Shown here: positions 512-44,155 of the stretch, piece by piece
Layout: each line of letters opens with the position of its first letter
Numbering within the stretch: position 1 is the first letter of the stretch
Position numbers and translations under genes: made by a program
Notes under the pieces: model-generated
What the model was told of the DNA's origin: nothing
Seen by the model: the letters and a program-made list of their open reading frames with translations, nothing else
The model's database searches: none
NCBI RefSeq assembly: GCF_004010195.1
Contig: NC_057754.1
Coordinates: 5,200,327 to 5,245,503 of the forward strand
Direction of reading: 5' to 3'
DNA: 45,177 nt
From: Chiloscyllium plagiosum
Lineage: Eukaryota

Positions 512-1639
512 AACCTATTCAAGCCACCATGGGGCAGGATGACAGATTTCCGGCCTTAAAGGACTACCTGATCGGTTATTTGTTCCAACAATCTGACAAT
601 GGTCCCCATTAATTCCACCAGCTGGCATGCTGGAATTTCAGACAAATCAGTCCAGAGCTCAAGGCTGGGCCTATGGATTATTAGCAAACAAAAACTGCTG
701 GAAAAGCTCAGCAGGCCCGGAATGCATCGATGGAGAGAAATCAGTTCCTCAGAACTGATGGTAGCTAGAAAATGGATAAAATGGGTAAGGAGTAAACAAT
801 AGTTGGAGATAGGGCCCAAAGCGAGAGAAGAATAGTTGGACAGACAAAGGAGTGGATAACATTCAGCCTGGGAGAATAAATAGCTGCTATCAGGGACAAT
901 TAGTGGCTAACAACGGGTGGTGTGCCCATGTGATAAGAAGACCTGCTGTGTGAGGGGGTTGGGGAGAAGTTGCCTGAAGCCCTAACATTGTTGAAATTGA
1001 GTCCAGAAGGCTGCAGACAAGTTCTTACTATGCCAGTTTTAGCCTTTGGGTTTTCCTAGCTTGTAAGGGTAACGAGACATTCACATTCCAGAACAGTCAA
1101 GATTAGGGAGCTGAGCTTCACAAATTCAAATCTGCTCAGTGTGGTATACGTGAGAATGTGTCAGGATTGTTCTATTATGTGCATATTCCACTCAGCTTAT
1201 TACATTACAAGTTCTTTTCCTATTGAGTATAAGTTTTGTTAAGAGTCTTCAATATAAACCAGAAACTCAGTTATGTACCATCCCATTGTGAAATACATGC
1301 AGCTTCCAGCCCTCAGGGTGAGAAGGAAGTACTGCCACACATTCCACAAGTGAACAAATGTTATCACCTTATCTACACCGATTGATGCTAAGAACAGATG
1401 TCCTTAATTCTACTGAACAAATGCCACCCCCCCCCATGGTCGAGCACTTTCCTGTATCTCCTGTAGCGGATGTGTTAGGCTACAAGCTTTCCCAGAGGTC
1501 CTTTGCTGAAGAACGTTAGTGAACCAGGTATTTTGTAAATGATAGTTGGCAATAGTTTCATAGCACCATTGCTGAAATGGGTTTTACATTCTTAGAGTTA
1601 TTAATTTAATTAAGAATTCCGTAAGCTGCCTTTCTTAAA

Positions 1640-2220: not shown

Positions 2221-4190
2221 GAGGAGTTTTTTTAAAAAACCATGGATCCACTGTGTATACTAGCTCCTTTTCCAATCCTTCACTTCCTTTCCTTTAGATG
2301 CAACTGAACACGCTCATGTCCCCACCAACCTGACCAGTGCTAATATTGCACGTAAAATTTATGTATAGGGACATGTTGTAGAAACATAGCAGGCCTAGAA
2401 TTAATGTGTAAAGCCTGATACGACTCTTCTTCAGAACTGAAGAGCTCTTCAGAAAAAGTGTCATATCTCTCTCCACAGTTGCTGGCAGACCTGATGAGTT
2501 TCTCCTGCTTTTTTGTGTTTATTTTACATTCCCAACATCCACAGTAGTTTGCTTTTATATGTATGTAAGGTATTTTATTAAATTTGTTCCTTGCCATTCT
2601 GAAAAGGAGTCCTCTTTTTCACTGTCTCTCCCTCCACATCCTCAAACATTTTCATTCAGCGTATTTTTTTTAAAATGTCCCTTCTGGGTTTTATTCCCCA
2701 TTATCCATTCCTTATCCTCCAGCCCGTGGAATTTTCTCAGTTGACAGGCTTCTGCAAAACTGCAGGAATCAATGAGCCGGGAACTCCATTATCCGTGATT
2801 AGGCTCTTAAACTTGACGATAACAAAAGCCCAGTGTGTGATGAATGGGAACTGATTGTATTTACAGTGGAGGGATGGTGGGTGGGTATGATTATTGGCAT
2901 GGCAAGCTCACCCAGGAGTTCAAATGGTGCTCATAAAACTGTCAGTGAATCAAAACATGAGTGGTTTATTGTCTTCTGTGCCCGATGACGAATCAACCAC
3001 TTGCACCCCAACACACATTTGTGACTGATTATGATCTGATTAAACATTAAATCTAAATTGCCAGTGCCATCTGTGGAAGCCCTTTTTTATTAAAAACCTC
3101 TTTTCCTGTCCCCCCACTCCTTTCCTCTCTGCCCAGCATACAATACAGTTGTAAAGTCCCACCATTTGTGAATTTGCTTAACTGCTCCAAAATAATGTAC
3201 ACCACCTTCCCCCCCTCCCCCATTATGCAACCAATCTTCACTTATTATTGATTTGATTTGTTATTGTCACACGTACCTAAGGACGGTGAAAGGTTTTGTT
3301 TTGCGTGCAGTATCAGCAGATCATAACATACAAGGACATGCAAATCACAGGGTGATTGAATAAGTGATGCACACAAAAAGTTATGGCTACACTGGAGGTA
3401 CTTAGGATCGAGTTTCAATCGTTCTGCACTTTTGAACGACATGTGAGAATAAGATCTGCTGTAGGGAGCGTGCAAAGAGTCCACCTGTATTGGCACCATC
3501 TTGAGCAACACAACTTTCAGGAGAGAGAGAAATCTGAGACGATCAACAACTAGATAAAAATTAAGATACAGAAGACGCTTGCATGTGTGCATCGTCTGTC
3601 ATGTTTATTGGAATGTTTGTATGTGGGTAGACTTTGCTGGAGAGCCCTTGGTAGGGATTTGAGACTAATTTTATATTTCCTCTTTTATTGAGCAGTTTTT
3701 CCAGCAGGATGTCTTTGTATTTATTGGAAGCGTTTTTCTTCCTGTGTCAAATTTTGGGACATTATGGGGAGACAGTGACATGTTGTTTATGCCAGTGGGC
3801 TAGTAAGCCAGTAATCCACCACTTCAACACACCACTGTGTTCCCTGGCCAACATCTCAGGCTTGCTGCAGCGCTCCAGCGTAGCTCAGCACACGCTGGAA
3901 GAGCATCACCTCAATTGGCCTGGCTGGATCAAGGGTGTCCCACTTGGATGTGCATGTAGCTTAGTTAGTCAAGCGTACACAGACCTGTCAGTCAGTCAGT
4001 TTCTCTTCCTCTGCAAACCTTTGCCATTTTATTGCTTCTTATCGGATGAAGGACATGTGGCGTTTTTGTAATTTTAATCCCAAACTCTGTATACAGACAG
4101 CAGCAATAGGGGAGCAGCCTGAGAGAGCTCTGAGGGGGTAAGAGCTGATGCTGCTCCTCTGCTAAAGCCTGACTTGTAGGAACGTACAAG

Positions 4191-4340
4191 GCAAAAGTGA
4201 GGACTGCAGATGCTGGCAACCAGAGTTTCGATCAAAGTGGTGTTGGAAAAGCACAGCAGGTCAGGCAGCATCGACGTTACGGGCAAAAGCCCTTCATCAG
4301 GAATAGAGGGAGGAAGCCTCCAGGGTGGAGAGATGAATAG
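4191..4340 (-). mobile_element. Penelope-like pLTR fragment, mutated hammerhead
   Basis: Same family as 16448-16638. Minus strand CTGATGAAGGGCTTTTGCCCGTAACGTC (GAAA>GTAA). Confidence 0.75.
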
Positions 4341-5079
4341 CATTTTTGTTTTTCTTTTTTTTTTGTTCTCTCTCTCTCTCTCTCCTTTGATCTAAAACCT
4401 TGTAGGTATCTAGTTTAAATTATTACCTTTATTTAACCAATAAACTGTGGCCACCACAGAGCACAATCTCCAGGATGAACCAAGAGAGGCTACAGTTCGA
4501 GTCCATCAGGGATTCCCTGAGCTGTCTCGAACAGGTACTTTAAACACATCTGCTGCCTGTATACAGTCTGACGGCTCTACAGCAAATGTGGTTTACTCTT
4601 AATTGCCTCCTGAAATGGTCAGCCAAGCCAATGAAAGATGGCCAACAGGGATTGGCAAGGTGCTCATACCTCATAAAAGGATGAATACTCAAGATCTTTG
4701 CAAGCTTCAACAACTCTGAGCGCACAAAACAAAAACTATTACTGTTATATTAAGCAAAAAATTGCAGCTGTTGGAAATCTGAAACAGAGAGAACGCACTG
4801 TAGAAATTCAGCAGGTCTGGCAGCAACCGTGGAGAGAAAGAGAGTGTGTTAATGTTTCGGGTCCAGTGACTCTCCACCTGACTGTGACCTCTTACAGAAT
4901 TAGCAAGTACACTCTGACAGCTTGTGCAGTAAATGTAATTTTGGGCCCAAAGGAAACATTTTTGGAGGTTGAAATTGACGTACACACACCTCTATACAGC
5001 CCAGGGGAGAGAAATCGTGGGCCTTAGTGCTTTTATTGTTTGCAGGGCCCCTTCCACCTGCTAACCCCAACCTTTAACT

Positions 5080-5530
5080 CTGAAAGCAAAATCTGCTGGA
5101 GATTACAGCAGGTCAGGCAGTATCCAGAGACAGAAAGCAAAGTAACGACTTAAGTCTAGATGACTCTTCATCAGAGCTCTGACAAAGCATTATCTCAACT
5201 CAAAACGGTAGCTTGCTTTCGTAGAAATCATAGAATCCCTATGGTATGGAAGCAGGCCATTCAGCCCCTCGAGTCCACACCAACCCTCCAAAGAGCACCC
5301 CACCCAGACAGAGACTCTCTTCCTATCCCTGTAACTCCGCATTTCCTATGACTAACCCACATAGCCTGCACATCCCTGGACACTATGGGCAATTCAGCAT
5401 GACCAATCCACCCTAACCTGCACATCTCTGGGCTTTCTCTCCATGGATGTTGCCTGGTCCGCTGTGATTTCCAGCACTTTGTGTTTTCAGTACAGATTCT
5501 AGCATCTGCAGTAATTTACTGCAACCTTTA
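5080..5530. mobile_element. Old inverted Penelope-like pLTR pair interrupted by an HE1 SINE tail (5222-5430)
   Basis: Palindromic centre TCAGAGCTCTGA. Degenerate arms resemble the 16448 family; related remnants at 688-1020, 2395-2552 and 4755-4880. Confidence 0.55.
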
Positions 5531-14186: not shown

Positions 14187-14679
14187 GTGCACTCTGTGGT
14201 TTCTGACACAACGTATTGGAGTTTGCAATTATCAAATAGTTATGTTATGGAGGCAGTGTGCAACACTGGTGCTATGACAACAGGATACCTTTGCTCCAGT
14301 GTTACGATGAAAATAATTCTGCTGCGTGAAATGTTGAACGGGTTGGGCTTATATGCATTGGAGTTTAAAAGAATGAGAGGTGACCTCTTATTTAAATGTG
14401 AACTTGATGGGACTGGATATAGGGAGGATGGTTCCTCTTGTGTGGAAGCCTAGAACTTGGGGACCGTGTAAGGATAGGAGGTCTCGCTTTAAAGACAGGG
14501 ACTAGGGGAACTGTTTTCTCTGAAAGAGAGAATGAAGCTCGTTCTATACAAGCACCACCCTCTGCGTGACAAAGTTACTCCTCAGGATCTTTTTGCATCT
14601 TTCCCCTCTCACCTTAAACCTGTGCCATCTGGTTTTGGCCTCCCCTATCCTACCACCACCCTCCTTGCACCATCACAAA

Positions 14680-15170
14680 CCATGAGGGGACCCTATACAG
14701 ACAACAAGCAAAACTAATGTCATTTACAAAATACCATGCAAGGACTGTAACAAACACTACTTTGGACAAACAAGCAGAAAACTAGCCACCAGGATACATA
14801 AACATCAACTAGCCACAAAATGACATGACCCTCTCTCACTAGTATCCTGACATACAGATAAGGAAGGACACCATTTCGACTGGGACAACACATCCATCCT
14901 AGGACAAGCCAAACAGAGACACGCACGAGAATTCCTAGATTCATGGCATTCCAACCGGAACTCTATCAACAAACGCATCAAGTTAGACCCCATCTACCAC
15001 CCCCTGAGAAAAAAGAACAGGAAGTGACATCACCAACCCAAACATAAATAGAAAGCAGGAATCATCAACAGTGCTTCATCCGAAGGCCCACTGAAGATGT
15101 TACCTAGTAGGGTGACGAAACGTCTGGAAATGAACCTTCCAGCTCAGCGAGCAAACCGACATCCAGCAAT
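14680..15170 (+). mobile_element. Penelope-like element 3' end (GIY-YIG endonuclease remnant + pLTR)
   Basis: Translates as KTNVIYKIPCKDCNKHYFGQTSRKLATRIHKHQLA...HHFDWDNTSILGQAKQRHAREFL, with in-frame stops. Confidence 0.85.
15088..15127 (+). ncRNA. Minimal type I hammerhead ribozyme motif, intact core (second Penelope family)
   Basis: CCA-CTGAAGA-T-GTTACC(TAGTAG)GGTGAC-GAA-ACGT-C-TGG; stem I CCA/TGG; directly 3' of a GIY-YIG coding remnant. Confidence 0.75.
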
Positions 15171-15714
15171 ACACACTGCTTAGAGGAACCTTTGCATTTG
15201 AAATTGCCACAGATCCACTGGGCACTATTTTCAGACCAGTACTTTGCTTTCTTCCACCTCGCTTGCTGAACATGACAATTCCTTTCTGATCCACACGTGC
15301 CGCCTACCTTCAGAAAGCTCGTCTTAGCAAATGCACCTAGCCAGCAGCTTTTCAACGACAAGGTAACCAAAGGTCTTGATTAATGCAAACCTGTGGGCAT
15401 GCTTGCCAAGTGGTCACCAGGCAATGTTTAGAAGCAGGAACCCTGACTGAGCAGAGTGGGAATAAAGCCTGGCTGTCAATCTGAATGAGCTTTTCACTTT
15501 CGCACGCAGGAAGCCAATTTCTCTCCTGTCTGCAGCTGCAGCTCATCTCAGCATTGCACAATGACCTCCGAATTGACACACAACCATCAAACTGCCAGTC
15601 AGTCACGTCACAAAATCCTTGTAACACGCACAGAGCAGAACCAAAAAAGGCAAGGGGCCAGTCTGTTTTCTGACAACAATAAAATGCAAGTCAACTTCCC
15701 CAAAGCAAGGGGAA

Positions 15715-16433
15715 ACTAAACATTAGCTTTTATGATTCGAGGGATTAAGTTTCAGAGCTGCAGCTATACACAACTCTGGTGCAGCTGCATTTGGAGTATT
15801 GCATACAGTTCTAGTCACCGCATCATAGGAAGGATATGGAAGCTTTGGAAAGGGTTCAGAGATGATTTACCAGGATGTTGCCTGGTATGGAGGGAAGTTC
15901 TTATGAGGAAAACATTAGCTTTTATGATTCGAGGGATTAAGTTTCAGAGCTGCAGCTATACACAACTCTGGTGCAGCTGCATTTGGAGTATTGCATACAG
16001 TTCTAGTCACCGCATCACAGGAAGGATGTGGAAGCTTTGGAAAGGGTGCAGAGGTGATTTACCAGGATGTTGCCTGGTATGGAGGGAAGCTCTTATGAGG
16101 AAAGGCTGAGGGACTGGAGGCTGTTTTCATTAGAGAGGAGGTTGAGAGGTGACTTAATTGAGACATATAAAATGATCAGAGGGTTAGCTAGGATGGACAG
16201 GGAGAGCCTTTTTCCTCGGATAGTGATGTATAGCACAAGGGGGCATAGCTTTAAATTAAGGGGTGCTAGATATAGGACACATGTCAGAGGTAGTTTCTTT
16301 ACTCAGAGTATTGGGGCATGGAATGCCCTGCCTCCAACAGTAGTAGACTTGCCTTTAAGGGCACTTAAATGGTCATTGGATAAATATATGGTTGATAGTG
16401 GAATAGTGTAGGATAGATAGGCTTCAGATTGGT
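15715..16433 (+). mobile_element. CR1 LINE 3' fragment with 192-bp tandem duplication
   Basis: SYEERLRDWRLFSLERRLRGDLIETYKMIRG; CATTAGCTTTTATG at 15721 and 15913. Confidence 0.85.
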
Positions 16434-16447
16434 TCTATCTTCTATTA

Positions 16448-16638
16448 GGAGGAGAAAGTGAGGACTGCAGATACTGGAGATCAGAGCTGAAAATGTGTTG
16501 CTGGAAAAGCACAGCAGGTCAGGCAGCATCCAAGGAGCAGGATTCCTGAAGAAGGGCTCATGCCCGAAACGTCGATTCTCCTGCTCCTTGGATGCTGCCT
16601 GACCTGCTGCGCTTTTCCAGCAACACATTTTCAGCTCT
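16448..16638. mobile_element. Penelope-like pLTR-derived mini-element: inverted repeat enclosing a hammerhead motif, with 14-bp TSD
   Basis: Arms 16483-16542 and 16579-16638 are reverse complements (59/60). Flanking direct repeat TCTATCTTCTATTA at 16434-16447 and 16636-16649. Confidence 0.8.
16541..16578 (+). ncRNA. Minimal type I hammerhead ribozyme motif, intact core
   Basis: CTGAAGA-A-GGGC(TCAT)GCCC-GAA-ACGT-C; palindromic ACGT stem III; predicted cleavage after GUC at 16573. Confidence 0.75.
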
Positions 16639-17829
16639 ATCTTCTATTAAGCTAGAACTCTCCACCAGTTTAATCTCAATTTGTGTTCACAAAAATAATA
16701 AACTCTGTTCGGCTGATGATTGCTGGCTCGTGTGCATCGTTATCTGCAGTACATCAGTCATTTCAGGATCCAGACATACTGTAGGAGAGAGGGCGGTTTT
16801 AACCTTTGAACAGGAGTTTTCTGTAGCACCATTCAAGAGTTTGAAGGCAATGGTTCATGCTGCAGGACGGAGGAGCAGAGAGTGAACCAATGCATCTCAC
16901 CAAGTGACCGAGCACAAGAGAGATTGGGAATTGGAACTACCTGGAAGCAATTAATGGAAAGGCACAGAACAATAAAGTAGCCAAATGCAAACAGGGCAAC
17001 AGTGAGGGGTTCCAATCAACATTTCCTTTCTCAGCCAAACGTCAACAAACCATGTTAGCTGATAAAACAACTACATGGCATTTTGGGAGCTTTTTCTGTA
17101 CAAACTGGCAACCACAAATTGTTGACTATAAACCACTCTGCGGCCTCCCGAGATCACAAAGAGCACTGCAACAGAGGTCTTTATTTCTACATCTGAAGGA
17201 TCAGGGAGAGTTGATAAGTTAGCTCTTCTGTTGAGAATTAAGGAGGGCAAGCCACACCAGGAGCTTGATGATAGGGCAGCACAGTGGCTTAGCGGTTAGT
17301 ACTGCTGGGTGGAACGTCTTTCAGAGGGGCAGCATAGCCTCAGCGGGCCAAATGACCTGCTTCCACACTGTAGGGATTCTACATTCTGTGATTTGAACAA
17401 TGGAGGTGGCTGAATTGTCTTTGTATTTCTGGTCTGTCTAAGGTGCAAGGAAACATATAGCATTTACACATATCATACCTCCGAGAAACAGAGATTCCTG
17501 AAGCGCTGTCAATAGTGAGAGTTAACGTACATTCGACTAGACTCCAGGAAATAATAAATGGATTGAGTTTGTTTGTTTGCTTTACATTTTGGCATGTGTG
17601 CGAGCACGAGAGAACGTGCATGTGTACGCGGGAGTGAGAGCCTGTGTGGGTGTGTGTGTGTGGGGACACGGGTGGGCAGCGTAATTTTGGGGCTTTAACC
17701 TTTATTTGAACCCCACGTTACCTTCGCTTTTATCTCAAAGATGTCACCTCCAAGAAGGAGCACTGTCTCAAACTAAGCTCAAATGATCAGGAGCTGGATT
17801 TGAACATAACCTTTAGCTCTGGAGCAGAT

Positions 17830-18185
17830 GGGGAGCTGATGGCCTAGTGGTATTAATGCTAGACTTTTAATTTAGAGATCCTGGTAATGCTCTGGGAATC
17901 CAGGTTCATATCCTTCCATGGCAGAGGGCAGAACTTTAATTCAATAAACATCTGGAATTAGGGGTGTAATGATGACCACAAAACCATTGATTGTCAGAAA
18001 AACCCCATCTAGTTCACTAGTGCTCTTTAAGGAAGGCAAATGCGATCCTTACCCGGTCTGGTCGATATGAGACTCCAGACCCCAGAGCAATGTGGTTGAC
18101 ACTTAATTGCGCAGAGGACAGTTAGGGATGGGTAATAAATGCTGGCCTAGCCAGCAATGCCAACATCTTGTCACTGAATTTAAAA
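17830..18185 (+). mobile_element. Deu-domain SINE (SacSINE1-like)
   Basis: tRNA-like head; Deu-like core GTTCACTAGTGCTCTTTAAGGAAGG...CCTTACCCGGTCTGG...GACTCCAGACCC; tail AATAAATGCTGGCCTAGCCAGC. Confidence 0.7.
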
Positions 18186-18271
18186 ACTGAGGCACTTCCT
18201 GTTTGGCCCAGGTTTGAAGCTCTCTAAAACAAAGATTCCAGCTCAAAGAAAATCAAAAAGAGCACACACCT

Positions 18272-18825
18272 ATCATAGAGTCATAGAGACGTACAGCACA
18301 GAAACAGACCCTTCAGTCCAACCCATCCATGCCGACCAGATATCCTAACTCAATCTAATCCCACCTGCCAGCACCCAGCCCATATCCCTCCAAACCCTTC
18401 CCATTCATATACCCATACAAAAGTCTTTTAAATGTTGCAATTGTACCAGCCTCCACCACTTCCTCTGGCAGCTCATATACGTACCACATTCTGCGTGAAA
18501 AAGTAGACCCTTACGTCCCTCTTAAATCTTTCCCCTCTAACCCTAAACCTATGCCCTCTAGTTCTGGACTCCCCCACCCCAGGGAAAAGACTTTGCCTAT
18601 TTACCCTATCCATGCCCCTTCACGATTTTATAAACCTCTATAAGGTCACCTCTCAGCTTCCTACTCTCCAAGGAAAACAGCCCCAGCCTATTCAACCTCT
18701 CTCTAAAGCTCAAATCCTTCAACCCTGGCACCAGCCTTGTAAATCTTTTCTGAATCCTTTCAAGTTTCACAACATCCTACCAACATGAAGGAGACCAGAT
18801 TTGCACGCAATATTCCAAAAGTTAA
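18272..18825 (-). mobile_element. CR1 (HER1-like) LINE 3' end
   Basis: Close reverse-complement copy of 1-391, extending further 5'. Confidence 0.9.
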
Positions 18826-18940: not shown

Positions 18941-19312
18941 CTGAGCAAAGTACATATTCATGAGACCGAGGGTGAAGAACTGCAGGCAGACCGGGAAGCA
19001 GTAGAGCAGCCAGAAGGAGAAAGGGCCCAGGGTGTTGGCTTTGATGGTGTCTCGGAAGTAAAATGAGAAGAGGGTAGTCCTCAGAGCAGCCCACAGGAGA
19101 CACAGGAAGAGGAAGACAGTCTGGTAGCTGAACTTCTTGTGCCTGTAATGCAGCACCAGCCAGAGCTGGATGTAGATAAGGAGGAAGAGGAGTCCATAAA
19201 GTGCAGTGTAGACAATGGTCAGTCCCAGCGTTACCGAGAGCGGAACAGCAGGTTGCAGGGGTTCAGGGCTCACTGTGTTCAACACGATATCCATAACTTG
19301 TGCATCTTCCAT
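18941..19312 (-). CDS. GPR137: GPR137 integral membrane protein, first main coding exon (124 codons, TM1-TM3)
   Basis: Translation MEDAQ...[17 protein letters not shown]...[41 protein letters not shown]...[18 protein letters not shown] matches the GPR137 family. [17 protein letters not shown] favours GPR137 over GPR137B/C. ATG at 19312 is in strong Kozak context (AAGATGG). Phase-0 donor CAG|GTAATC at 18941/18940; upstream acceptor ttctctcctggtag|G at 19366/19365. Confidence 0.93.
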
Positions 19313-29911: not shown

Positions 29912-30340
29912 CATAGAAACATAGAATCTCTATAATGTGGTTGCAGCCTACTGGGTCCACACTAACTCTCTAAACAGCATCCCACCTAGTTCCATCCCCC
30001 CACCCTATCCCTGTAACCTTGTTCTTTCCATGGCTAATCCACCTAACATGCACATCCCTGATCACTATGGGCAATTTAGCATGGCCAATCCACCTATCAT
30101 AGCCAATCCACCTATCCTAGGCAAAAGTGAGGACTGCAGATGCTGGAAACCAGAGTTTCCTCATTTCCCCTCCCCCCACCTTACCTCAGTTCCAACCTTC
30201 CAGTTCAGCACTGTCCTCATGACCTGTCCTACCTTGCCGATTTTCCTACTCCTCGGATGCTGCCTGACTTGCTGTGCTTTTCCAGCGCCACTCTGATCTA
30301 AACCCAATCCACCTATCCTGCACATCTTTGGACTTTGTTT
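29912..30340 (-). mobile_element. HE1-type SINE 3' portion
   Basis: GGCTAATCCACCTAAC / GCAATTTAGCATGGCCAATCCACC motifs shared with other copies. Confidence 0.7.
30119..30303. mobile_element. Penelope-like pLTR-derived insertion in an HE1 SINE, 16-bp TSD
   Basis: CCAATCCACCTATCCT at 30103-30118 and 30304-30319. Inverted pLTR tip followed by a forward pLTR lacking the hammerhead segment. Confidence 0.7.
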
Positions 30341-31359: not shown

Positions 31360-32152
31360 AATCATAGAATCCCCAAAGTCAGAAAAAGGCCAAGTGGCCC
31401 ATCGATTCTGCAACAACTCTCTGAGACGCATTTCAGCTGTACCCAACCCTGTAACTCTGCATCTATCATGGCTAATGACATAGGCTATAAATTACAGGCA
31501 ATTTAGCACGGCCAATCCACCCTAACCTGCACATCCCTGGAGACTATGAGGCAATTCAACACGACCAATCCACCATAACGTGCACATCCCAGGACACTAT
31601 GGGACAATTTAGCACAGCCAATCCACCCTAACCTGCACATTCCTGGACACTATAGGACAATTCAATGCGGCCAGTCCACCTGAACCTGCACATGTTTGGA
31701 TTGTGGGAGAAAACCAGAGCACACAAAGGAAACCCACGCAGATATAAGGAGAAAATTAAAACTCTACATAGAAAGTCACGAACCCAGGTCCCTGGTCCCT
31801 ACTACTGAGCCACTGTGCTACTATGGGGTAACAACACAGCCAATCCACCCCAACCAGCACATCTCACAACACTATGGGACAATTTAGCACGGCCAATCCA
31901 CCCTAACCTGCACATCCCTGGACTCTAAGGGACAATTTAGCACGGCCAATCCACCCTAACCTGCACATCAATGGGCACTATGGGACAATTTAGCACGGCC
32001 AATCCACCCTAACCTGCACATCCCTGGACTCAATGGGACAATTTAGCACGGCTAATCCACCCTAACCTGCACATGGCTTGGACACTATGGGTCAATTTAG
32101 CACGGCCAATCCACCCTAACCTACACATCCCTGAACACTGTGGGACAATTTA
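31360..32152 (-). repeat. HE1 SINE with a 53-bp internal segment amplified in tandem (~4 + ~6 copies)
   Basis: Unit GGGACAATTTAGCACGGCCAATCCACCCTAACCTGCACATCCCTGGACACTAT starts at 31876, 31929, 31982, 32035, 32089 and 32142. Confidence 0.85.
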
Positions 32153-37149: not shown

Positions 37150-37790
37150 CTCGAAATCTTCCTGCAGAGATTCCTGGACGTGTCCAGCCACTCTACCCTC
37201 CATCAAAGACATCTCAGAAATGACTGCCAGACCGTTCAGACCTCTTGGCATCGTGTTAGCTCACAAACCCACCAAAACAGCAGCTAATGAACTTGAAGGA
37301 CCCCATACAGACAACAAGCAAAACTAATGTCATTTACAAAATACCGTGCAAGAACTGTTGACAAACAGGCAGAAAACTAGCCACCAGGATACATGAACAT
37401 CAACTAGCCACAAAAAGACGTGACCCTCTCTCACTAGTATCTTTACATACAGATGAGGAAGGTCACCATTTTGACTGGGACAACACATCCATCCCAGGAC
37501 AAGCCGAACAGAGACATGCATGAGAATTCCTAGAGGCATAGCATTCCAACCAGAACTCTACCAACAAAAGCATTGACTTGGATCCCATTTACCACCCCCT
37601 GAGAAACAAAGAGCAGGAAATGGCTCACTACAGGAAATGACATCGCCAACCCAAGGCAACCTAAACACATAAATAGAAAGAGGGTCAGACCACCAGTGCT
37701 TCATCCAGGGGCTTACCTGATGATATTACCTAGTATGGTGACGAAACGTCTGAACACGAACCTTCCAGCTCAGTGAGCATGCATCCAATA
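37150..37790 (+). mobile_element. Penelope-like element 3' end (GIY-YIG remnant + pLTR, hammerhead motif at ~37714-37753)
   Basis: Homologous to 14680-15170. CTGATGA...GAAACGTC core present, stems weakened. Confidence 0.85.
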
Positions 37791-40785: not shown

Positions 40786-41168
40786 GAGTGGGTTTTGAGA
40801 AGATTTGAAGCTCAGCTTGAGGTTCTGGACGTGGGTTTGCTCGCTGAGCTGGAAGGTTCATTTCCAGACGTTTCGTCACCTTACTGGGTAACATCAGCAG
40901 TGAGACTCCGGATAAAGCACTGGTGGGTATGGCCCGCTTCCTGTTTACGAACTCTATCAAGAAACACATCCACTCGGATCCCATTTACCACCCCCTGAGA
41001 AAAAGAACAGGAAATGACGTCACCGCAGGAAATGGCATCACCAACCCGAGGAAACCTAAACCCATAAATCGAAAGCGGGTCATAACACCAGTGCTTCACC
41101 TGAGGCCTAGTACGGTGATGAAACGTCTGAAACTGAACCTTCCAGCTCAGTGAGCAAACCTACATCCA
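40786..41168. mobile_element. Two inverted Penelope-like pLTR fragments inserted in a CR1 remnant
   Basis: Minus copy ~40790-40945 and plus copy ~40950-41168 of the 15000-15170 family. Imperfect TSD ATTATTTGCAAT / ATTCTTTGTAAT. Confidence 0.75.
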
Positions 41169-43696: not shown

Positions 43697-44155
43697 AAAC
43701 CGTGTTGAAACAGGCCATTCAGCCCGACAAATCCACACCGACCCTCCGTAGAGTAACCCATTCAGACTCATTTCTCCCCTACCTCATTACTCTCCATTTA
43801 CCCCTGACGAATGCTGAAAAATGTGTTGCTGGAAAAGCACAGCAGGTCAGGCAGCATCAAAGGAGCAGGACAATCGACGTTTCGGGCATAAGCCCTTCTT
43901 CGGGACAAATGCACCTAACCCACACATCCCTGGGCACTATGGGTAATTTAGCACGGCCAATCCACCCTAACCTGCACGTCCGTGGGCACTATGGGTAATT
44001 TAGCATGGCCGATCCACCCTCACCTGCACTTCTTTGGATTGTGGGAGGAAACCTGAGCACCCTGAGAAACCCACACAGACACAGGAAGGGGATGGAACAT
44101 GCAAACTCCACACATACAGTTGCCCCGAGAGCAGTACTAACCACTGAGCCACCCT
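43697..44155 (-). mobile_element. HE1-type SINE with nested insertion and internal duplication
   Basis: Tail, central domain and partial head are recognisable. Confidence 0.75.
43815..43903 (-). mobile_element. Penelope-like pLTR fragment inserted in an HE1 SINE, mutated hammerhead
   Basis: Minus strand CCGAAGAAGGGCTTATGCCCGAAACGTC. Flanks GACGAATGC / GACAAATGC. Confidence 0.75.

What the first reader, a model, noticed from the sequence alone, without database searches (positions are those of the whole stretch)
16434..16649. TSD-flanked ~190-bp hairpin element whose loop is an intact hammerhead ribozyme
Seen: a 60-bp inverted repeat (16483-16542 / 16579-16638, one mismatch) encloses CTGAAGA-A-GGGC(TCAT)GCCC-GAA-ACGT-C. 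The unit is flanked by a perfect 14-bp duplication, TCTATCTTCTATTA. Established: Penelope-like elements carry minimal type I hammerheads with palindromic stem III in their pLTRs, and often insert with an inverted pLTR piece. Inference: this is a young, separately inserted non-coding unit in which the long arms extend hammerhead stem I. That could stabilise an otherwise weak ribozyme and make it a non-autonomous, retrozyme-like mobile RNA. The hairpin would also form in the GPR137 pre-mRNA on the opposite strand.
Basis: partly seen in the sequence, partly recalled or inferred. Interest (0 to 1): 0.72.

Follow-up and report, generated by a model that had tools for sequence, protein, structure and literature searches.

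The report
Mirror-image Penelope retrotransposon stub
This 190-base hairpin is a real insertion made of two head-to-head pieces of a very common repeat laid out like the end of a Penelope-type jumping gene; it was likely stitched together from two short DNA copies at the landing site, and its hammerhead motif is predicted not to cut as a single molecule, so it is likely an ordinary leftover rather than a new mobile RNA.

Summary
In detail: 60-bp inverted repeat, hammerhead core, 14-bp duplication. The unit is a forward end-piece of an abundant repeat (16542-16635) joined head-to-head to an inverted piece that carries a 35-nt one-sided extension. That is the published Penelope-like layout: inverted pLTR, 30-40-bp tail, TSD. 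Three other copies lie in the window, one a second inverted insertion with another junction. Contigs from three species show over 800 different joints. The junction is not unique (24 look-alike contigs listed), but 14 of 24 are shifted by 1-3 bases and it sits on a shared GA overlap, which fits repeated formation. The retrozyme reading fails: one hammerhead, no tandem, stem III has no loop, the active dimer needs the arms opened, and the host gene reads the other strand. Likely mechanism: reverse transcription from both target nicks, one copy running to the capped RNA start. No link to a Penelope ORF was shown and cleavage is untested. The scan found this before on other DNA (180 notes, at least 21 genomes). 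Ordinary; interest 0.18.

The parts
16434..16447 (.). left copy of the 14-bp target site duplication (79% A+T), at the end of a LINE-like repeat
   Evidence: flank is repeated in the window and in contigs
16448..16482 (-). 35-nt one-sided 'tail' of the pLTR
   Evidence: outside the inverted repeat; family ends pile up at 16450 and joints go back from 16482 to 16447/16450 in 4 of 4 runs; shared with copies at 4194 and 30124
16483..16542 (-). inverted pLTR piece (left arm); stops 5 nt short of the hammerhead cut site
   Evidence: native continuation seen as loose ends behind 16542
16541..16542 (.). junction: GA shared by the end of the left arm and the likely capped start (G+A) of the forward piece
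   Evidence: loose ends before 16541; native base before A16542 is C (130 RNA reads); cap origin inferred
16542..16635 (+). forward pLTR piece, from the likely RNA start to the inner end (no tail)
   Evidence: 93% match to 43813-43905, which ends at the same base
16546..16573 (+). minimal type I hammerhead core; stem II 16554-16557/16562-16565; palindromic ACGT 16569-16572; predicted cut after C16573
   Evidence: features as in PMC4209133
16579..16638 (+). right arm of the hairpin; last 3 nt are shared with the duplication (microhomology with the tail start)
16636..16649 (.). right copy of the target site duplication
   Evidence: organism C's flank contig matches from exactly 16636 (record 16)
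43813..43905 (-). second copy of the same subfamily: forward piece only, hammerhead core kept, 9-nt duplication with one mismatch
30103..30319 (.). independent insertion with the same layout (16-bp duplication 30103-30118/30304-30319, inverted tail piece, forward piece ending at the tail boundary), other junction, hammerhead absent
4190..4330 (-). older copy of a sister subfamily with tail, native upstream sequence and a damaged hammerhead

Best explanation
The unit is an insertion of two head-to-head end pieces of an abundant hammerhead-bearing repeat that is likely the pLTR of a Penelope-like retrotransposon, and it was likely built at the landing site and is likely a dead end. Inferred steps: the element's endonuclease nicks both strands of an A+T-rich site 14 bp apart; each freed 3' end primes reverse transcription on uncut element RNA, one at the inner start (right side, helped by a 3-nt TCT match) and one at the outer start 35 nt further on (left side, giving the tail); the right cDNA runs to the RNA's 5' end at A16542 and copies the cap as an extra base; the left cDNA stops at CAGGA and the two 3' ends join through a 2-nt GA overlap; fill-in gives the duplication. 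The hammerhead is a passenger: it is native to the repeat, needs a partner, and lies antisense to the host gene. Identity as a Penelope-type stub about 0.9; the two-primer route about 0.6.
For: Layout equals the published one: inverted 5'-truncated copy plus one-sided 30-40-bp tail (PMC8557442), inverted pLTR with 31-bp tail and 9-bp TSD (PMC3846280). In vitro a Penelope protein cuts and extends both strands at A+T-rich DNA, starts at two sites that bound the tail, and uses mainly uncut RNA (PMC11167929). Three insertions in the window (16.4, 30.2, 43.8 kb) end their forward piece at the same boundary. 80,765-148,412 contigs per run lie on 16150-17250, summed depth about 10^7 on the unit against 8-22 on the unique flank; 15 joints shown and 800 more not shown. 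Host-like flanks join most often just before G16541 (11, 21, 25 contigs in X1, X11, X10; before A16542: not in the shown rows, 10, 13) although the native base there is C. CAGGA occurs at two places on the antisense strand: the outer one gives the full palindrome (41, 38, 27 contigs loose before 16538), the inner one gives this locus. Stem III pairing probability 0; active dimer +2.7 kcal/mol against two hairpins, and freeing one arm costs about 109 kcal/mol.
Against: No RT or GIY-YIG frame was tied to this family, so Penelope membership rests on layout and hammerhead. The cap reading rests on contig counts in capped tables, and chance matches to the reference's GGA can shift loose ends by 1-3 bases. 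PMC11167929 found priming sites not homologous to the cut DNA, so the TCT match may be incidental. PMC3846280 explains head-to-head junctions by self-priming on an antisense template instead.
Confidence: 0.65

Rival explanations
1. Same origin, but the insertion was first a full palindrome with a hammerhead in each arm and then lost the 35 nt between the two CAGGA repeats by slippage or repair.
For: CAGGA at antisense positions 95 and 130, 35 nt apart; full palindromes are the top loose-end class in the DNA runs and one X10 contig holds 35 letters between 16542 and 16542. Central deletions in long palindromes are established knowledge (recalled, not searched).
Against: 14 of 24 listed junction contigs are shifted by 1-3 bases, which a 5-nt repeat does not predict; joints into 16541-16543 also come from 16469, 16472, 16481, 16489 and 16494.
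Confidence: 0.13
2. The inverted arm arose by fold-back self-priming (on an antisense template, as proposed in PMC3846280), not by a second primer at the other nick.
For: Published proposal for head-to-head junctions with palindromes; the junction here is the near-palindrome CAGGA-T-TCCTG.
Against: A fold-back copy of the right cDNA would end at the right-hand boundary and lack the tail; the left arm has it. The arms differ at 16511 and both letters occur among the window's copies, although CpG decay could also give this.
Confidence: 0.08
3. The left arm was copied from a hammerhead-cut RNA (5' end at G16574), so the junction records cleavage in the living animal.
For: The arm stops 5 nt short of the cut site and look-alike junctions cluster within 3 bases.
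Against: Stem I strands and the GA overlap favour this place without cleavage; 178 of 334 RNA reads in listed joints cross the cut site uncut (strand not resolved); uncut RNA is the main template in vitro.
Confidence: 0.07
4. One reading: the hairpin is a non-autonomous, retrozyme-like unit that is transcribed and re-inserted whole.
For: Own TSD; junction look-alikes in three species, some above single-copy depth; pLTRs suffice in cis for mobilisation in trans (PMC3846280); retrozymes derive from pLTRs (bioRxiv 10.64898/2026.07.22.740005).
Against: One hammerhead and no tandem units, so cutting cannot release a unit-length RNA; monomer stem III impossible and dimer blocked by the arms; listed junction contigs sum to depths 74, 281 and 214 against 1.5-4.1 million on either side (lower bounds); at most 47 of 334 RNA reads fit without a loose part; a transcript of the unit has a priming site only at its inner end, since the tail is inverted.
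Confidence: 0.07

Closest known systems
Complex insertions of endonuclease-bearing Penelope-like elements (Adineta Pen2a/Pen2 in PMC3846280; Fig. 2 legend and text of PMC8557442; passages read)
   Same: Head-to-head inverted pLTR piece, one-sided 30-40-bp tail, TSD, strong 5' truncation, hammerhead in the pLTR.
   Different: No ORF at all between the inverted pieces; TSD 14 bp against 8-10 bp there; clade (Neptune or Poseidon) not determined.
Anolis Poseidon element PAc in vitro (PMC11167929; parts 1-2 of 4 read)
   Same: Two ends that bound a tail, A+T-rich target, both strands primed, hammerhead kept uncut in the copied RNA.
   Different: That paper does not describe joining of the two cDNAs or a cap-derived base in the parts read; here a 3-nt match at one priming end; no ORF start was tied to the hammerhead here.
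Minimal hammerheads of metazoan PLE pLTRs (PMC4209133; parts 1-2 of 4 read)
   Same: Type I core, extra base between 9 and 10.1, G10.1-C11.1, palindromic 15.2-16.2 with no loop 3; mostly single motifs in truncated copies, some pairs on opposite strands.
   Different: Stem II is 4 bp rather than the 7-8 bp of the Schistosoma motifs; stem I is closed by a 60-bp accidental helix.
Non-LTR retrozymes (PMC7229834 passages; bioRxiv 10.64898/2026.07.22.740005 parts 1-3 of 5)
   Same: Non-coding, type I hammerhead, related to pLTRs.
   Different: Retrozymes are head-to-tail tandem units with a hammerhead in each, giving linear and circular monomers; this is one head-to-head unit with one hammerhead.

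Membership tests
EN+ Penelope-like element insertion | Inverted 5'-truncated piece next to the forward piece (head-to-head) | tested here: met
   native continuations on both sides of 16542
EN+ Penelope-like element insertion | 30-40-bp tail at one end only | tested here: met
   35 nt, 16448-16482; boundaries recur in window copies and in joints of 4 of 4 runs
EN+ Penelope-like element insertion | Target site duplication with an empty site elsewhere | tested here: inconclusive
   14-bp duplication present; organism C's contig matches from 16636 and goes on with 28 letters that the tool did not show, consistent with but not proof of an empty site
EN+ Penelope-like element insertion | Hammerhead motif in the pLTR | tested here: met
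   native to the repeat (copies at 43903 and 4300)
EN+ Penelope-like element insertion | Parent element with telomerase-like RT and GIY-YIG ORF | tested here: inconclusive
   peptide from the pLTR found no such protein; no genome held; a different hammerhead family in the window follows a GIY-YIG remnant (E 0.0043, below cut-off)
Minimal type I hammerhead | Core CUGANGA, GAAA, UH; stem II with G10.1-C11.1; extra base after A9; palindromic stem III | tested here: met
   9 of 9 listed family differences in 16543-16572 fall at N7, loop II or are C>T in stem II (filtered table)
Minimal type I hammerhead | Self-cleavage (as dimer or with protein help) | not testable with these tools
   needs an in vitro assay; folding predicts no monomer activity
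Non-LTR retrozyme | At least two consecutive head-to-tail units, each with a hammerhead | tested here: not met
   one sense hammerhead in the unit, none on the minus strand; nearest other motif is another family 1.45 kb away
Non-LTR retrozyme | Expressed as unit-length linear and circular RNA | tested here: inconclusive
   poly(A) single-cell reads (2% of one run) show mostly native repeat RNA; such a library would miss small circles
Self-copying non-autonomous hairpin family | Many copies with one fixed junction, both outer ends and different TSDs | tested here: inconclusive

The most novel reading that the evidence does not exclude
The gap-free junction seen at several-fold single-copy depth in two related species marks a small self-copying family: an ORF-less hairpin RNA with the hammerhead in its loop, transcribed whole and re-inserted by the Penelope enzyme, a head-to-head counterpart of the tandem retrozymes.
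Probability: 0.07. Interest if true: 0.62.

Novelty: new member of a known kind. Interest (0 to 1): 0.18.

Why it matters
As one locus it matters little: it is one of a very large number of stubs. As a class, the stubs record how Penelope-like elements insert, a step that PMC8557442 and PMC11167929 call unresolved: which start site is used on which strand, where the RNA begins, and how the two cDNAs are joined. The two-primer, cap-overlap model can be tested in the existing in vitro system. I found no paper on it in the held library, but many subscription papers are not held and the scan's own notes already state it many times. A side effect: if the host intron is transcribed, the unit gives a 60-bp double-stranded stretch, a possible RNA-editing target (inferred, untested).

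Tried and rejected
Rfam: nothing at gathering score, only generic microRNA-hairpin hits below it; rejected as shape matches. The pattern found 0 because its gap was one base too short; the scan found 4 motifs. Exact-pattern scans of viral contigs and metagenome contigs gave 0. Search for the parent ORF with a pLTR-derived peptide: 1 hit of 39 candidates, a bamboo-shark gene model that has absorbed the repeat; 4 hits in 1.84 billion, the same model and three repetitive proteins. No RNA holder listed for 14500-18500; not used as evidence. No further host exon was found by motif or open-stretch scan, so 'intron 1' is inferred. The cut site lay 1 base outside the stretch, so RNA ends there were not examined. 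The paper on dimeric PLE hammerheads (PMC5785218) is not held; it is known here only through the review PMC6765202 (passages). Supplements of the retrozyme preprint could not be seen and may list shark families. Earlier-findings look-up by sequence gave nothing.

Full report
Observation. The sequence is as described. One search gives arms 16483-16542 and 16579-16638 (60 nt, 98%) and a perfect 14-nt direct repeat at 16434-16447 and 16636-16649. The RNA fold has z = -16.7, with 0 of 200 shuffles as stable. Every hammerhead core position is present, from C3 at 16546 to C17 at 16573. Two details change the reading: 35 nt (16448-16482) lie outside the inverted repeat on the left only, and the last three bases of the right arm are also the first three of the duplication.

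What the pieces are. The window holds other copies of the same repeat. A forward-only copy at 43813-43905 (93% alike) starts 2-3 bases from where our forward piece starts and ends at the same base. An older copy at 4190-4330 carries the 35-nt extension and native upstream sequence. At 30103-30319 a separate insertion has the same plan, with a 16-bp duplication, an inverted extension piece and a forward piece ending at the same boundary, but another junction and no hammerhead. So the hammerhead is native to the repeat, and the unit is an inverted piece with the extension joined head-to-head to a forward piece without it. A scan of both strands finds 4 such hammerhead motifs in 45 kb; the one at 15091 belongs to another family and follows a decayed GIY-YIG frame (Pfam E 0.0043, below the curated cut-off).

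Abundance and junctions. No genome is held, so I laid public contigs on the locus. Of 24 runs listed I used 5. On 16150-17250, 80,765 to 148,412 contigs per run were laid; summed depth is about 10^7 on the unit and 8-22 on the unique right flank. The tool warns that this is no copy number, and overlapping contigs inflate it, so I take it only as 'very many'. The joint table shows 15 rows and hides 800 more; shown rows include inverted arms ending at 16469, 16472, 16481, 16489 and 16494 and joining at 16541-16543, and the tail doubled on itself (16482 back to 16447 or 16450, 4 of 4 runs). Family ends pile up before 16450 (272-696 contigs per run).

Is this junction shared? On 16513-16572 the tool listed 8 junction-crossing contigs for each of three DNA runs, its cap. 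Of these 24, 10 have no gap and 14 have 1-3 gapped bases; none is an exact match. My stretch was too short for the tool's own 31-letter bridging rule, but each record has 15 or more letters on both sides of a point where the native sequence parts from the reference. Two gap-free records in organism B stand at about 11 and 4 times the flank's depth and one in organism C at about 3 times. Against a family: the listed depths sum to 74, 281 and 214 (lower bounds) beside 1.5-4.1 million on each side, the shifted variants outnumber the exact register, and there is a local reason for recurrence. CAGGA occurs twice on the antisense strand, 35 nt apart. Joining at the outer one gives the full palindrome, the top loose-end class in the DNA runs (41, 38, 27 contigs); joining at the inner one gives this locus.

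Where the forward piece starts. Earlier scan notes say that such stubs start at the element's RNA start with an extra G. I checked this in part. In 130 RNA reads the native base before A16542 is C. Yet unrelated long flanks join more often just before G16541 (11, 21, 25 contigs) than before A16542 (not among shown rows, 10, 13). The native context fits an initiator pattern (recalled consensus YYANWYY), Drosophila Penelope has an Inr/DPE promoter in its pLTR (PMC2377424, passages), and an extra G from copying the cap is reported for LINE-1-related copying (PMC4038843, passages). With that G, the two pieces share GA at 16541-16542. The tables are capped and chance matches can shift ends, so this step is likely, not shown.

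Age. Contigs from the right flank run 20-21 nt into the unit in two samples of organism A and in organism B (19 substitutions in 635 nt). In organism C (30 substitutions) the match starts exactly at 16636 and 28 further letters do not fit. That suggests an empty site in C and an insertion older than the A-B split; the 28 letters were not shown.

The ribozyme. Stem II is predicted at probability near 1. Stem I's two closing pairs are at 0.18, and a hammerhead-compatible fold without stem III holds about 13% of the ensemble. The native repeat offers only two pairs, a U-U mismatch and one more pair, so the arms do extend stem I. But stem III is ACGU with no loop and cannot form in one molecule. 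Minimal motifs of this kind showed no monomer cleavage and low dimer cleavage (PMC4209133, parts 1-2 of 4), and the Anolis motif cut only with protein and was not needed for insertion (PMC11167929, parts 1-2 of 4). The active dimer needs strand exchange: it scores +2.7 kcal/mol against two hairpins, and freeing one arm costs about 109 kcal/mol (a kissing form is not modelled). The arms therefore likely lock the motif. The host exon reads the minus strand, which has no hammerhead core. In the RNA run, 178 of 334 reads lie in listed joints that cross the cut site uncut, and at most 47 fit without a loose part; these are family reads, strand unresolved, from 2% of one poly(A) run.

Mechanism. Shown: layout, boundaries shared among copies, many junctions. 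From the literature: Penelope protein nicks and extends both strands at A+T-rich DNA and starts at two sites that bound the tail; the duplication here is 79% A+T. Inferred: the right nick primed at the inner start and ran to the capped RNA start; the left nick primed at the outer start and stopped at CAGGA; the two ends joined through GA. Rivals are later deletion from a full palindrome, fold-back self-priming (PMC3846280, passages), copying of a cut RNA, and a self-copying hairpin.

Comparison and novelty. It works like, and by layout belongs with, the inverted-pLTR-plus-tail insertions of endonuclease-bearing Penelope-like elements (PMC8557442, passages; PMC8969392, passages). Very short PLE insertions are normal (median 128 bp in Chlamydomonas; PMC9977147, passages). 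The parent ORF was not found, so membership lacks that test. It fails the retrozyme definition of tandem units with a hammerhead each (PMC7229834, passages; bioRxiv 10.64898/2026.07.22.740005, parts 1-3 of 5; supplements not seen). Searches found no paper on shark Penelope hairpin stubs or on two-primer formation in PLEs, judged from listings only. The scan itself has 180 notes on such units in at least 21 genomes, and 2410 of 3832 notes in this genome fit the words Penelope, hammerhead, pLTR; these are unchecked and are not counted as support. Verdict: real, ordinary, new member of a known kind; interest 0.18.

Noticed in passing
window 14683-15165 (+), with copies at 37298-37779 and 40825-41168: 3' end of a second Penelope-like family: decayed GIY-YIG frame followed by its own minimal hammerhead at 15091 with a 7-bp stem II and the same ACGT stem III.
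   Followed up: partly
window 30103-30319: Inverted-tail insertion whose forward piece jumps from upstream sequence to about the hammerhead cut site, so the ribozyme is missing; could be a microhomology deletion or a copy of cut RNA.
   Followed up: partly
window 16448-16482 (joints): The 35-nt tail occurs doubled head-to-tail in other loci of all 4 runs (joints going back 33-36 nt).
   Followed up: no
window 15718-16101: Exact-spaced 192-bp tandem duplication (97%) inside the LINE-like repeat left of the unit.
   Followed up: no
window 696-735, 4809-4834, 5105-5126: Short, more distant relatives of the pLTR core motif, probably older families.
   Followed up: no
protein P0002 residues 286-312: A public bamboo-shark gene model has absorbed this repeat as a false or exonised coding exon.
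   Followed up: no
window 18941-19312 (-): First coding exon of the likely GPR137 gene; no later exon found in the window, so the first intron is probably over 18 kb.
   Followed up: partly
window 31497-32152: Array of about 53-bp units from a SINE-like repeat, also seen once at 43904-44125.
   Followed up: no
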